From Atractiella rhizophila (Eukaryota): a stretch of 64,000 nucleotides of DNA. Position numbers and translations under genes: made by a program. The first letter of the stretch is position 1; each line of letters starts with the position of its first letter. Below are positions 17,891 through 33,265 of this stretch, in pieces. The DNA is taken from assembly GCA_021432655.1 (NCBI GenBank), contig MU271415.1, positions 1 to 64,000 of the forward strand, written 5' to 3'. The notes below the pieces were generated by a model. The model made no database searches, was not told the origin of the DNA, and saw only the letters and a program-made list of their open reading frames with translations.

Positions 17891-19694
17891 TTATTCTTCT
17901 TCGTATTGTTGCTCCTCTTCGCCATAATCCTCTTCCTCATCGTCCACCCCTGCCTCCTGGTATTGCTGGTACTCAGCGACGAGATCTTGCAAATTCGATT
18001 CTGCTTCTGAGCTGCGATGCAACGCCAGTTTAACCTCCCTGCCATGATGGAGTGGAAAGGGACGTACAACTCTAATTCCTCCATCCCTTCCCCGGTATAC
18101 CAATGCAAGAAAGCTTTTCGCTTAAACATAGCTGTCATCCAAAACAGTGAGTTATTTCTATTCCTGTGTACAAGAGAGGAGGAGTAGGCTTACCAGTGAA
18201 CTGCTCTGCGATACGCTTGAAGAGGTCCTGGATACTCGTCGAGTTCCCAATGAAGGTAACCGACATCTTCATTCCTCTCGGTGGGATGTCGCAGTTGGCA
18301 GTCTGGACGTTATTCGGAATCCATTCCACGAAATACGCGCTATTTTTCGACTGTACTGCCAACATGCTATCTTCGACTTCCTTCATCGACACCTTGCCTC
18401 TGAAGTACGCGCCAACCGTAAGGTATCTTCCTTGCCTTTGATCGATACACATCAGCTCACTTTCCTTCAGAGCAGAAGAGCGGGAATCACGAACCTGGGA
18501 TCTGAGGCAGCCATCATGTTCTTTGCGTCGAACATCTGCGCCGTCAACTCCGCAACAGTCACAGCACGATAGGACTGGCTGCCTCTAGCTGTGAGGGGTG
18601 CGTATCCTACCATGAAGAAATGAAGACGAGGAAAGGGGACCATGTTGACTGCCAGTTTTCGTAGGTCCGAATTGAGTTGACCAGGGAATCGGAGACAGGT
18701 CGTTATTCCGGACATTACGTTCGACACGAGGTAGTTGAGGTCACCATAGGTCGGGATGGGCACTTTGAGCGTCTTCTCGCAAATGTCGTACAACGCTTCG
18801 TTGTCGATACAGAACGTCTCGTCCGAGTTTTCGACCAGTTGATGTACCGAGAGAGTCGCGTTGTAAGGCTCGACAACTGTGTCTGATACCTATATCCTCC
18901 TGTGTAAGGGATGAATTCTCTTGTGGCGAGGGAAGGTGCACCTTAGGAGAGGGAACGACGGAGAAGGTAGCCAACATCCGATCCGGAAACTCTTCCCGGA
19001 TTTTCGACACGAGCAGCGTCCCCATCCCACTCCCCGTCCCTCCACCCAACGAATGAGAGATCTGAAAGCCCTGGAGGCAATCACATCCCTCCGCCTCTTT
19101 CCTCACGACATCCAGCACCGAATCCACAAGTTCAGCACCCTCCGTATAATGACCTTCGCGTGACATACACCCTCAACCTCACTACACCTTGGGCAGAAAG
19201 AGATAGCATACCTTTTGCCCAGTTGTTTCCAGCTCCATTTTGCCCGAATACACAGTTGTCAGGTCTGAACAAGTGTCCAAAAGGCCCAGAACGGACGGCG
19301 TCCACAGCTCCTGGTTCGAGGTCGACGAGTACAGCTCGGGGGACGTATTTGTTACCAGCTTCACGATCTAGCACCCAGCGGCTCTATCGACGTGGATTGT
19401 GGAAGAAGAGACGACCGACCATTTATCTCGTTGTAGTACACGTTTATGCGCTCGAGCTGTAGGTCGGACGTGCCTTGATACCTGGAGGCGATACCTCATT
19501 AATTTACGTCTCCCAGCGCTGCAACGAAGCACTCGCTTTCCACTCGCGTCAATCCCATGCTCATCAGACACAGCTGAATATCGGACCCTTCAGTTTGAGC
19601 TCGTGAAAAGAAGGGGAAGGTACAGACTCTCCCAAAACTTCGCCCCGATCATGTTGCCGCACTGGCCAGCCTGGAGATGGACTATTTCTCTCAT
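17891..19694 (-). CDS. TUB2: Beta-tubulin paralogue 1
   Basis: [86 protein letters not shown], acidic tail. Confidence 0.97.
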
Positions 19695-20309
19695 TTTCGC
19701 GGGGTCTATACCCACATCTAGTCATCCCTAAGCATCCTAAGCAGAAAGGGTACTTGCCAGGGATTGGAGAGGCTAGAAGATGGTCGCTGCAGCTTTCGAG
19801 CTAAGAAGGAAACGCGCTGGGCTGTGGTCTCGCTTGTAGTTTCTTTTCCACTACACTCAACCTTAATGAGAAACAGATGCACATGATAAACTTAAACTTT
19901 GTGGAATTACCAGTTGGGAAATCCGAGAAATCCGCTCGGCTTTCTTCGAGGTGCTAATTCCGAAGGGCAATGCGCAGCGGTCTGTACTTGAGCCGTCTGG
20001 AACAACGCTGGAACGTGTTCCGAGCGATTTCCTTTGAACGACAGGTTCTTCGAGTGCGAGATTTTCAGTTTGCCAGTTTTGGCTCGCCAATCTTCCGTCT
20101 GCTTTCCGGTGCTCAATCGACGAACCGGTCGTACGAGGCACAAGAGTTCCAACTTCCAACAGCGGAGATGGGAACGCGAACGTATAAAAGGATTGGGGGG
20201 GCTCTGCGTTCGCTTCCTCCCTAAAAACCCTCTCATCTTCCTGGACAAATATTTCCAGGATACCCTCTCGCAGAATTAAATACCAGAAGTGGTAGATTCG
20301 TTGTGCAGT

Positions 20310-21055
20310 ATGAAGAATTTGTCTATCCAGTTGGAGTCGAAGCCTAAGCATTGGTGCAGAGAAGGTGAGGTTCATTCTTTTCATTTCTCACCTTTCGTGT
20401 CGTGTCACGGATGGAGCACTGATAAATTTATTGCACAGAGCTCTGTATCTTCGCTGAACAAGCCGTCCTGGCTTTATTCCCAATCGAGCCTGAATGTCAG
20501 GTTCCAACCTCTCAGCCTCGTCTATCAGTGTGGTTGGTGCGTCCACCGTCCTATCTCCTTATAAAACACAATACTCACCTAGAATTTATGCAACAGTCCT
20601 ACGTCCTCTTACGCACCGAGCTTCCAGACGCCCACCTTTTCTACGCACTCCATCTCCTCCGCCGTCTCTCCATCTCCTACGCACCCGCCTCGAGCAGCAT
20701 CGGGGACTACCCCCCCTTATTCCACCACCAGCTTCTCCTCGCCTCCCTTGTCCTCTCCGGTGCATACGCCTGCGACACCGCTTTCACACTCGCGAGTTGG
20801 AAGAAGGCCTCCATGGAAATCTGGAGCGTGGGCGAGATCGAGGAGCTCCAATTTGAGATGTTTCGGGTGCTCGAGTTCAAGTTGAGGGAGGAGGGCGAGG
20901 ACCTGGATGCTGTCGTTCGGGGATACGAGATGGAGTGGAAGGCGTCGAGGATGCCGACGCTCAAAAAAACAGAAAAAGCGACCGAGGACCCTCACCGTGC
21001 ACCTCGGTTCGTCGATAGCGAAGAGCTGGACACCGGTGATGTTGCAGAGGGATAA
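20310..21055 (+). CDS. Pcl/Pho80-like (Pho85) cyclin-fold protein
   Basis: Spliced PRLSVWL|SYVLLRTELPDAHLFYALHLLRRL and HQLLLASLVLSGAYACDTAFTLASW...IEELQFEMFRVLEFKL resemble the Pcl cyclin box. 5' exons are inferred. Confidence 0.7.
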
Positions 21056-30794: not shown

Positions 30795-31295
30795 TCGAGA
30801 GACAATTTAGAAGGCTGTTAGACGAATCGAAATCAAGCAAAGTCGACAACAATGGAAGAGTCGGTTTTGTTTCTCGCGTTGTTACCTTAAGAACTGCACA
30901 ACAACGCGCAAACTAGAGCACTCAAAAAGTGCAGAATTGATGGTTTCCGCGGTACTGTATGCCAAACAGCTGCGACTGAGAGCAATAGCTTTATAAAGGT
31001 GGTAGTCTGAAGTCTTTCATGCCGGATTATTGGGCAGGCGAGTTTACAAAATGTTAACGTAGCAGAGTAACGTTGTATGCAGCAATATCTGGTGGTGTAG
31101 TCCAGTTATGAACAATTTCTCCAATTATTTCTTCTGATATTATTAGTCCAGGAAGCCGTTGAGCCGTTAGAATGAATAAATTTGACGAAGAAGTGGTATC
31201 TCATGTTCCGGTTCAGGTGATAGCCGTCTCCCTTCAACTATTTTACCATATATTCAGTAAAAGACCTTTGACTTTAGCTGAGGTGACGTACTGTT

Positions 31296-33265
31296 CTACT
31301 CCTCTTCGTATCCTTCCTCAGCCTCTTCTTCTAATTCCTCGTCATCGGCACTTGCTTGTTCATACTGCTGGTATTCAGCAATCAAGTCTTGCAAATTGCT
31401 CTCCGCCTCAGAACTACACATATTGATCAGCTCTGGTTACTCTTCATGGCAGAGAGTAATGCAGACAATTCAAGTTCTTCCATACCCTCTTGTGAGTACC
31501 AGTGGAGGAAAGCCTTTCTCCGGAACATAGCTGCAAACTGTGCGTGTGTGCGCTTGAAAAGTTCTTGAATTGAGGTGGAGTTCCCAATGAAGGTAGCTGA
31601 CATTCGGAGACCAGCTGGAGGGATTGAGCAAAGTGACGTTTGGACCCTGCCCCGCCATTATATAGTAAGAGAGAGTAGAATTAATAACTGTGACACGGCG
31701 TACCGGTTAGGGATCCATTCGACGAAGTAAGCATCATTCCTTTGTTGCACTATCAAAGGCGGTCAGCCCTACCGACAAGTAAAAGTGTGAGGGTAGCCGA
31801 TCATACCATTGTACATGCTCTCTTCCACATCTCTACTAGCAACGTTCTGTCCCCTAAATATGGCAGCGACCGTAAGGTATCTCCCGAGTCTTCACATCTC
31901 ATTAACTTCCAATGCTCGCAGTTCAACGGGCCACACACCTTGGATCGCAAGCTGCAAAGATATTCAGAGGACTGAACATCTGTTGGGTAAGTTCTTGGAC
32001 GTTAAGCTTATGATAGCTATTTGTCCCTGGCGCAACAAGTGGTGCAAAACCACAAGTGAAAAAGTGTAAACGAGGAAACGGAACCATGTTCACTCCAAGC
32101 TTTCGCAGATCAGAGTTAAGCTGTCCCGGGAATCGAAGCGTTGTCGTGCACCCAGACTACGCGCAAGTTTAACAGATGTGAGCGCGATCACAAAGAATAC
32201 GCACAATGACGTTGCTGATCAAGGCGTTGAGGAAATCGTAGTCTGGATTGGAGTTTTTAAGAGTCTTCTGAGCGATATCGTATAACGCTTCGTTGTCCAA
32301 GCAAAAAGTCTCGTCAGAGTTCTCGACCAACTGGTGGAAGCAGAGGGTTGCATTGTAAGGCTATTCAAATGATTCTGTGAGAAGAAGCTTGAATGTCAAA
32401 CAGAAATTATACTTCAACGACTGTATCCGAGACTTTCGGCGAAGGAAGGATAGACCAAGTGCTGTAAGCGAGCTAGGTGAGATGATGGAATTAGACAAAA
32501 GACAGCATACGCGATCATCCGATCTGGGTATTCTTCTCTAATCTTACTCAACAGTAGACTTCCCAGTCCACTCCCAGTTCCTCCACCAAGTGAGTGAATG
32601 AGTTGAAATCCTTGTACAAGGTCGCATCTCTCCGTTTCCAGACGCAGCTGTTCCATGATGTTATCCAGAAGTTCGGCACCTAAGTTAGATCAAGAGGTTC
32701 ATTGAGAACTATTTCAGTCATTTTGAGCTCACAAAATCACCTTCAGTGTAGAATCCCTTTGCTAGACCATGGATAAGCTCCTTCTCGTAATGATCAGGTA
32801 GAAAAACAGACAGAAATTGTTTCCTGCTCCAGATTGACCATGAATGAAATTGTCCGGTCGGAAGAGTTTGCCCAATGGTCCACCTTTGATGGTCTCCATC
32901 GTGGCGGGCTCAAGATCAAGCTGATAGCTCTTTTGAGCCTGACCATTCCTCTACCAAAACAGAAAACGCACCTGTAACGAGCGCGGGACCCATTTGGCTT
33001 CAGAAGCTTCGGAGAAGAAGACATTCAGGCGCTCCGTCTGATACGCATCACTGCTCACAACATCCCAATCCACTCCATTAAATACATGTTGAAATAGATT
33101 ACTTTCCAACGTATTTCCCATTATTGTCCAAGCCATGCTCCACCAGTAACGATTGCCAGTACGCGGAGGCGATTTGGTTGCCTATGTTTACCTTCAGTTA
33201 ACCAAATGTAATGCACCGATCTACACACCCGCTTGACCAGTTTGGAGCGTAATTATCTCTCTCAT
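31296..33265 (-). CDS. Divergent beta-tubulin paralogue 3
   Basis: Hand-spliced [107 protein letters not shown], acidic tail. No stop or frameshift seen. Confidence 0.92.

What the first reader, a model, noticed from the sequence alone, without database searches (positions are those of the whole stretch)
17891..33265. Three co-oriented beta-tubulin genes within 15.4 kb
Seen: three apparently intact beta-tubulins on the minus strand, separated by pairs of unrelated genes (cyclin+HAP3; MAM3+WHIM protein). All three read EGMEELE where the consensus is EGMDEME, with an intron at that same point. Paralogues 1 and 2 share further intron positions. Known: fungi usually have one or two beta-tubulins, generally unlinked. 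Inference: a local tubulin-isotype array produced by successive duplications, possibly with stage-specific use or toxin tolerance.
Basis: partly seen in the sequence, partly recalled or inferred. Interest (0 to 1): 0.7.

Follow-up and report, generated by a model that had tools for sequence, protein, structure and literature searches.

The report
Linked beta1/beta2 tubulin cluster in Atractiella
In a root-dwelling fungus, two copies of the ordinary beta-tubulin gene sit beside its ancient sister gene, and all three share a rare protein motif and an intron at one spot, which suggests that these long-separated genes once swapped a short piece of DNA.

Summary
Real. Three intact, spliced, co-oriented beta-tubulins (A 451 aa, B 448, C 448) lie in the window; identical named records are Atractiella rhizophila (Pucciniomycotina). 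They are not one gene duplicated twice. A and B (86% identical) are a lineage-specific beta1 pair. C belongs to the basidiomycete beta2 class, and an A+B+C clade is rejected (delta lnL 152). In Puccinia triticina beta1 and beta2 carry chromosome 4 and 12 tags, so the linkage is not general. The unusual part is that A, B and C share D404E/M406L/T409S (0 of 398 other beta motifs fetched have all three) around an intron at 408.2, plus an intron at 306.2; neither is in rust beta1 or in the environmental beta2 genes modelled. Best reading: an old exchange of a short 3' segment between beta1 and beta2 (intron transfer), about 55%. Synonymous sites are saturated, so no DNA trace remains; parallel change with ancestral introns is the rival. 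A and B carry a 3-4 residue insertion in the lateral-contact loop. Two or three further B-type loci lie in transposon-dense DNA. Benzimidazole-site residues are wild type in A and B; stage-specific use is untested.

The parts
17891..19694 (-). Tubulin A, beta1 class, 451 aa, 9 exons; 4-residue insertion in the H1'-S2 loop; substitutions include Q15M and H227Y
   Evidence: Spliced model agrees with named record P0278 in length, ends and loop; 5 RNA joints; second-haplotype copy on G000:C72
22777..24689 (-). Tubulin B, beta1 class, 448 aa, 10 exons; 3-residue insertion in the H1'-S2 loop; E205Q, D224N, G277S; closest relative of the dispersed copies
   Evidence: named record P0060 matches except for a different N-terminus; 4 RNA joints plus the joint at 24234
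31296..33265 (-). Tubulin C, basidiomycete beta2 class, 448 aa, 13 exons; short beta1-sized acidic tail
   Evidence: Model identical to named record P0142; trees; 2 RNA joints; second-haplotype copy on G000:C1052
18012..18067 (-). Intron 408.2 of A, inside the shared derived motif
   Evidence: Model; RNA joint 18011-18068 in 3 of 4 runs
22940..22991 (-). Intron 408.2 of B
   Evidence: Model; loose ends at 22939 and 22992 in run X24 fit the spliced form
31414..31466 (-). Intron 408.2 of C
18436..18494 (-). Intron 306.2 of A (B: 23298-23358; C: 31890-31938), the second position shared by all three
   Evidence: RNA pieces of B and C end at these exon edges
24225..24233 (-). Codons for the inserted D-R-E of B (A: 19359-19367), read when the first acceptor of intron 56.1 is used
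   Evidence: Joint at 24234 (its variant letter matches the dispersed copies); named records keep the insertion; unnamed relatives P0076 and P0363 have it too
20260..21287 (+). Cyclin-like gene (PF08613 type) between A and B; limits approximate, from RNA contigs
   Evidence: Two GT-AG joints; atlas hit 0.91; translation
21624..22270 (-). HAP3/NF-YB gene between A and B
   Evidence: PF00808; RNA contig
25000..27884 (-). MAM3/CNNM-type gene between B and C; limits approximate
   Evidence: PF01595; sequence
28210..30794 (-). WSD/WHIM-type chromatin protein gene between B and C
   Evidence: PF15613; RNA pieces

Best explanation
The cluster has two origins. SHOWN: A and B are a beta1 duplication within the Atractiella lineage, old enough to saturate synonymous sites; C is the beta2 isotype, from a duplication older than the split of rusts, smuts and mushrooms; all three are intact and spliced. 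INFERRED: beta2 and a beta1 gene once recombined in the conserved HWY-EGM block, so that a segment of about codons 401-420 (about 110 bp with its intron, possibly the whole 3' end) became common to both classes. This carried D404E, M406L, T409S and the 408.2 intron across (intron transfer by gene conversion). A single crossover that joined a beta2 body to the 3' end and downstream flank of a beta1 copy would also explain why C sits here in the same orientation, with its 3' end facing B and A. INFERRED function: the cell makes three beta isotypes. B, the copy that was multiplied further and stays under strong purifying selection, is probably the main structural subunit; A and C are probably minor isotypes. 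They present the same outer H11'-H12 surface but differ at the lateral-contact loop, where only the beta1 genes carry an insertion.
For: Classes: trees (SH-aLRT 97 for the beta2 set with C, 94 for A with the B-type rows, bootstrap 100 and 88) and AU test. Exchange: at 248 sites where beta1 and beta2 references agree, C shares 4 derived states with A and B, three within six codons around the intron; 1 of 672 reference beta1-beta2 pairs shares 4 and 1 shares 3. 0 of 398 non-Atractiella beta motifs have all three changes. A window scan moving C onto the A+B stem peaks at codons 401-422 (+7.8 lnL), against 2.3-2.9 there when C is moved onto 4 other beta1 lineages. Introns: rust beta1 (exon lengths in PMC3036848, converted) shares only 35.2 of its 8 positions with A/B and has 402.2; C shares 0 of 6 positions with the environmental beta2 gene L059; a read-through model points to 404.1 in rust beta2 (P0227, inferred). 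Two shared positions by chance: P 0.003 if sites are uniform, 0.03-0.07 if they are restricted. C's tail is 21 residues and ends YEEE like A and B; 6 of 7 Pucciniomycotina-type beta2 tails are 29-36. B copies: dN/dS 0.018-0.032 against B.
Against: No DNA trace: synonymous identity of C with A or B in codons 401-430 is at chance (p 0.81 and 0.28) and the 408.2 introns are no more alike than unrelated introns. The scan peak (7.8) barely exceeds the best of 19 control placements (7.1). The single changes recur: L406 in 22 and S409 in 27 of 398 motifs, E404 with S409 in one amoeba-type cluster of 13 records; both Tilletiaria paralogues have L406 although on different contigs. C keeps the beta2 state at 426, against an exchange running to the stop. 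A beta2 record (P0170) seems to have an intron at 307.1, 2 bases from 306.2, so an old intron may have stood there. Outgroup gene structures are few, and none is from another Atractiellomycete. The ranking of isotypes is not measured.
Confidence: 0.55

Rival explanations
1. No exchange. The three conservative changes arose in parallel in beta1 and beta2 because both co-polymerise and face the same partners, and introns 306.2 and 408.2 are old introns kept in both genes and lost elsewhere.
For: Each change recurs elsewhere, and E404 and S409 are the residues alpha-tubulin has at these places; both Tilletiaria paralogues have L406; R213K is also shared and recurs in unrelated rows; no DNA similarity is left.
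Against: Needs three parallel changes exactly around the one shared intron; E404 is in 0 of 52 reference rows; orthologues that split later share fewer introns than these old paralogues; the two nearest unnamed beta1 relatives keep the canonical motif.
Confidence: 0.33
2. On the linkage alone: beta1 and beta2 are neighbours because the original tandem duplication was never broken in Atractiellomycetes, so the arrangement is class-wide and ancestral. This is compatible with the best explanation and would give time for conversion.
For: Same orientation and 6.6 kb spacing; chance juxtaposition in a genome of tens of megabases is unlikely (my estimate); a beta1 pair in Wallemia is also adjacent, seen as fused gene models.
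Against: P. triticina beta1 and beta2 carry chromosome 4 and 12 locus tags (the tag format is my reading, and the two tags are from different haplotype assemblies); Tilletiaria beta1 and beta2 are on different contigs; two unrelated genes separate each pair and no flanking duplication remains.
Confidence: 0.3
3. One reading: one gene duplicated twice in place, giving an isotype array for stage-specific use or toxin tolerance.
For: Co-orientation, shared motif, two shared introns; true for A and B.
Against: AU test rejects A+B+C; C has the beta2 state at 28 of 42 diagnostic sites; no other beta2 in the genome search; drug-site residues unchanged in A and B.
Confidence: 0.03
4. The linkage is an assembly artefact of a fragmented two-haplotype assembly.
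For: 20156-31085 has no second-haplotype copy; no RNA contig spans the cluster; the window holds two tandem repeats at allele-level identity that look like stacked haplotypes.
Against: No N in the window; haplotype contigs C72 and C1052 end in 356 and 115 bases that are 100% identical to the window at the edges of the middle part; no close repeat lies inside it (nearest copies 83%); the named records are numbered three apart with two genes between, though these may rest on the same assembly.
Confidence: 0.04

Closest known systems
Basidiomycete beta1 and beta2 tubulin classes (Zhao et al. 2014, PMC5381371; parts 1-3 of 7 and passages read, figures and supplements not seen)
   Same: A and B group with beta1, C with the fast-evolving beta2; every basidiomycete sampled there has at least two beta genes.
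   Different: Here beta1 is present as 4-5 loci, beta1 and beta2 are within 7 kb, and they share derived residues and introns. The main text has no hit for synteny, tandem, chromosome or intron.
[quoted passage not shown]
   Same: Orthologous class (87% identity of A and B to M. lini); intron 35.2; wild-type benzimidazole residues.
   Different: 7 of 8 rust intron positions are absent from A and B; canonical motif; no loop insertion.
Intron transfer between paralogues by recombination (Yenerall and Zhou 2012, PMC3443670, passages read)
   Same: An intron at one position in two paralogues, absent from the orthologues seen, with shared flanking exon changes.
   Different: That review counted 3 clear events. 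Here the paralogues are only 66-68% identical and the intron sequences are saturated, so the case rests on position and protein states.
Class-specific tubulin tandem clusters of animals (Findeisen et al. 2014, PMC4202323, passages read) and the adjacent beta1 pair of Wallemia
   Same: Co-located beta genes from local duplication (A and B).
   Different: Those are recent, similar copies; this cluster includes an anciently diverged class and has unrelated genes between the copies.

Membership tests
beta-tubulin | Tubulin GTPase and C-terminal domains, MREI start, beta-type sequence and acidic tail | tested here: met
   best solved-structure matches of A are all beta chains
basidiomycete beta1 (A, B) | Groups with rust, smut and mushroom beta1 | tested here: met
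basidiomycete beta2 (C) | Groups with rust and smut beta2; beta2 states at diagnostic sites | tested here: met
   28 of 42 sites beta2, 10 beta1, 4 other
array from successive local duplication of one gene | All three copies form one clade | tested here: not met
   AU test, delta lnL 152.5
intron transfer / gene conversion between paralogues | Intron position shared by the paralogues and absent from orthologues | tested here: inconclusive
   Absent from rust beta1 and from the 3 environmental beta2 loci that cover it; rust beta2 inferred only; no Atractiellomycete outgroup structure
intron transfer / gene conversion between paralogues | Raised nucleotide identity in the tract or the intron | tested here: not met
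   at chance, as it also is between A and B at codons 401-430, so an old tract would not show
intron transfer / gene conversion between paralogues | Local change of phylogenetic signal around the intron | tested here: inconclusive
   Peak +7.8 at 401-422; best control 7.1
benzimidazole-resistant beta-tubulin | Substitution at H6, Y50, Q134, A165, F167, E198, F200, R241 or M257 | tested here: not met
   none in A, B or the dispersed copies; C has the class-typical T6, F50, W167, also seen in rust beta2
stage-specific isotypes | Different expression or function by stage | not testable with these tools
   Only assembled contigs were available; they cannot rank genes

The most novel reading that the evidence does not exclude
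C is a true chimera: a beta2 body joined by one crossover to the 3' end of a beta1 gene, which moved beta2 into the beta1 cluster, transferred an intron and gave all beta isotypes of this fungus one shared motor/MAP-facing surface, across paralogues that split before the basidiomycete radiation. With the beta1 loop insertion and the extra alpha and beta loci, Atractiella would then have a microtubule lattice of unusual geometry built from an unusually rich fungal isotype set.
Probability: 0.25. Interest if true: 0.68.

Novelty: new variant of a known kind. Interest (0 to 1): 0.44.

Why it matters
beta1 and beta2 are treated as cleanly separated paralogues in fungal phylogenetics. A linked pair with a shared intron and motif would be a rare case of exchange between genes only about two-thirds identical, and a candidate for intron transfer, of which a 2012 review counted three events. 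The 3-4 residue insertion lies in the loop that meets the neighbouring protofilament (H1'-S2 role from PMC5727398, passages read; placing the insertion there is by alignment and recalled numbering), which gives a natural variant for asking how lateral contacts set microtubule geometry. The genes themselves are already annotated and no function is shown, which limits the score.

Tried and rejected
Expression ranking: the B bins have the highest contig depth in all 4 runs, but contig depth cannot rank genes, the runs were found with a stretch holding B and most of C, and dispersed copies add to B; not used as evidence. Synteny in relatives: the genome has no relatives in the genome search; the metagenome scan gave 24 loci, mostly short, four of them beta2-like, none with a second tubulin reported and no real neighbour match to the window; the viral scan gave nothing; neighbours taken from fused models of other fungi do not hit this contig. 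A reciprocal recombination product: the fragment on C142 is the second allele of an alpha-tubulin. DNA-level conversion tests were negative. Duplicated flanks between A, B and C: only short low-identity pieces. An empty site for the dispersed copies: the partner contigs C258 and C144 diverge into repeats, so no insertion site was resolved (one search gave no answer). PMC10282164 has no 'tubulin' in the part held. One search was an uninformative comparison. The careful tree did not finish; its quick tree and a smaller tree are used. No fold or complex prediction was run. Not in print as far as seen: ten paper searches listed nothing on Atractiella tubulins or on beta1-beta2 linkage; most listings were seen as title and abstract start only. 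Ayliffe 2001 and Begerow 2004, seen only as references, and the supplements of PMC5381371 and PMC4202323, not opened, may hold intron or copy tables that bear on the claim.
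Full report
Observation. The window holds three minus-strand beta-tubulin genes at the stated coordinates. Spliced alignment gives open frames without internal stops: A 19694-17891 (451 aa), B 24689-22777 (448 aa), C 33265-31296 (448 aa). Named records with the same sequence are labelled Atractiella rhizophila and are numbered three apart (KAH8920531, -534, -537), so the genes are already annotated. Contigs of four runs (one on record as RNA, two guessed RNA, one of unknown kind) bridge introns of all three: 11 of the 11 printed joints tested match model introns. 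These are contigs, so they show that spliced forms exist, not how much.

Assembly. G000 carries two haplotypes: A has a 97% copy on C72 and C one on C1052. The middle part, 20156-31085, has no second copy, and both haplotype contigs end in sequence identical to the window at its edges, as expected where haplotypes were merged; RNA contigs show variant letters there. The assembly does seem to stack alleles as false tandem repeats elsewhere in the window, but A, B and C are far too divergent for that (protein identity A-B 85.9%, A-C 66.1%, B-C 68.1%). The linkage rests on one contig and was not checked with long reads.

What the genes are. Zhao et al. (PMC5381371, parts 1-3 read) describe two basidiomycete classes, conserved beta1 and fast beta2. 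C groups with beta2 (71 rows, quick tree, 35 rows, bootstrap 100) and has the beta2 state at 28 of 42 diagnostic sites. A and B form one beta1 clade next to two unnamed environmental proteins and the rusts. Forcing A, B and C together costs 152.5 lnL units. So the array is one local beta1 duplication plus beta2, not successive duplication of one gene. In P. triticina the two classes carry chromosome 4 and 12 tags, and in Tilletiaria they lie on different contigs. No other Atractiellomycete genome could be read, so whether the linkage is class-wide is open.

Genome-wide count. Pfam and protein searches plus follow-up give A, B, C, three further intact B-type genes (C70, C109, C130), three alpha loci with two alleles each, and one gamma locus with two. 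The B-type copies keep all 9 introns, are 96-98% identical to B in protein (dS about 0.5, dN/dS 0.018-0.032) and differ from one another by dS 0.05-0.11. The lowest value equals the allele distance of A (0.06), so they may be two loci rather than three: 5-6 beta loci in all. Homology with B covers only the gene, about 50 bases upstream and 300-370 downstream. The flanks are multi-copy repeats with Pif1-helicase, RVT_2 and weak Tnp2 hits. One loose end in run X5 reads like the spliced C130 copy. Capture by mobile elements is plausible, and earlier notes on this genome describe gene-carrying transposons (unchecked), but I did not resolve a carrier.

The shared motif and intron. At 248 sites where 28 beta1 and 24 beta2 references agree, C shares four derived states with both A and B: R213K, D404E, M406L, T409S. 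Of 672 reference beta1-beta2 pairs one shares four and one three. Among 398 beta motifs in 406 fetched records outside Atractiella, none has all three C-terminal changes; E404 occurs in 13 (one amoeba-type cluster), L406 in 22, S409 in 27. These records are top hits and cluster members, not a random sample. The three changes flank the intron at 408.2, which all three genes have; they also share 306.2. Rust beta1 exon lengths (PMC3036848) give 5.2, 12.0, 17.1, 35.2, 52.0, 345.1, 402.2, 443.0: one match to A/B and neither shared position. An environmental beta2 type (four loci, three covering these codons) has 10.1, 55.1, 182.2, 337.0, 416.1, 424.1: no match to C. A read-through model suggests 404.1 in rust beta2 (inference). 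Thus old paralogues here share more introns than orthologues do. Two matches by chance have P 0.003-0.07 depending on how restricted intron sites are. C's tail is beta1-sized and ends as A and B do. A window scan favours placing C with A+B most strongly at codons 401-422 (+7.8), with a lesser peak at 191 that is not specific to A+B.

Against this. The best of 19 control placements reaches 7.1. Synonymous sites and intron sequences show no excess similarity, although A and B are also at chance in that stretch. Each residue change is conservative and recurrent, two match alpha-tubulin, and both Tilletiaria paralogues have L406. C keeps beta2-type E426. One beta2 record suggests an intron two bases from 306.2. 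I put exchange at 55% and parallel change with old introns at 33%. The direction is unknown; the nearest beta1 relatives have the canonical motif, so the motif arose after they split.

How it probably works. All three proteins keep the GTP-binding and polymerisation motifs, so they should enter alpha-beta dimers (established knowledge). A and B carry 4 and 3 extra residues in the loop at about residues 54-58; among 329 such loops matched outside Atractiella, 322 have 4 or 5 residues, and the only two with the same inserted sequence are the two nearest relatives. The insertion depends on use of the first acceptor; a joint supports this for the B class, and for A it rests on homology and the named record. 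This loop meets the M-loop of the next protofilament (PMC5727398; PMC12966321), and B also changes the M-loop (G277S). An effect on lattice geometry or dynamics is inference. Residues 404-409 lie near the outer surface used by motors and end-binding proteins (recalled; the section read names no residues). B is taken as the main subunit because it was multiplied and stays constrained; this is inference, not measurement. Toxin tolerance has no support at the benzimidazole positions.

Verdict. A real and apparently undescribed arrangement of known genes (searches listed under Tried and rejected). The linkage of beta1 with beta2 and their shared 3' segment make it a new variant of a known kind, worth a comparative follow-up. 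Interest 0.44; 0.68 if the chimera reading proves true.

Noticed in passing
window 8046-10410 and 10412-12776: Head-to-tail 2.37 kb repeat at 98.3% identity; the haplotype contig C72 has one copy. Probably two alleles stacked by the assembler.
   Followed up: partly
window 58156-59647 and 59650-61140: Second head-to-tail repeat, 95.9%, holding a diphthamide-synthesis gene piece twice; same pattern, also seen at the alpha-tubulin on C526.
   Followed up: partly
window about 17817-17873, about 19704-19757 and 19482-19536: Tubulin A has an intron just after its stop codon (3 of 4 runs), one in its 5' UTR (1 run) and a GC-AG coding intron.
   Followed up: partly
G000:C70, C109, C130 (L006, L001, L002): Three intact, intron-keeping copies of B in repeat-dense DNA; on C70 and C109 a GC-rich hairpin-like stretch lies just before the 5' edge of homology. 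Possible capture by Helitron- or Pack-type elements.
   Followed up: partly
G000:C82/C53, C210/C526, C261/C142: Three alpha-tubulin loci, one divergent, where most rusts and smuts have one (PMC5381371).
   Followed up: partly
P0021-P0023, P0124-P0127: Wallemia ichthyophaga and W. mellicola records of about 900 aa are two beta-tubulins fused in one gene model; the halves of P0022 group together in beta1, so an independent adjacent pair.
   Followed up: partly
window 21087-21287: RNA contigs of the convergent cyclin and HAP3 genes overlap by about 200 bases at their 3' ends.
   Followed up: no
window 36274-38680: A 103-base direct repeat (98%; 36274-36376 and 38055-38157) and a 561-codon open frame without Pfam hit (36995-38680); alignment to haplotype contig C1052 breaks up here. 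Possible mobile element.
   Followed up: no
tubulin B residue 205; tubulin C residue 198: All B-type genes have Q for the conserved E of the DNEA motif; C keeps E198 where most beta2 references have L.
   Followed up: no
P0292, P0357: Leucosporidium creatinivorum also has two beta1-like genes, on different contigs.
   Followed up: partly
window 61523-63657: Two long minus-strand open frames (435 and 313 codons) without Pfam hit.
   Followed up: no
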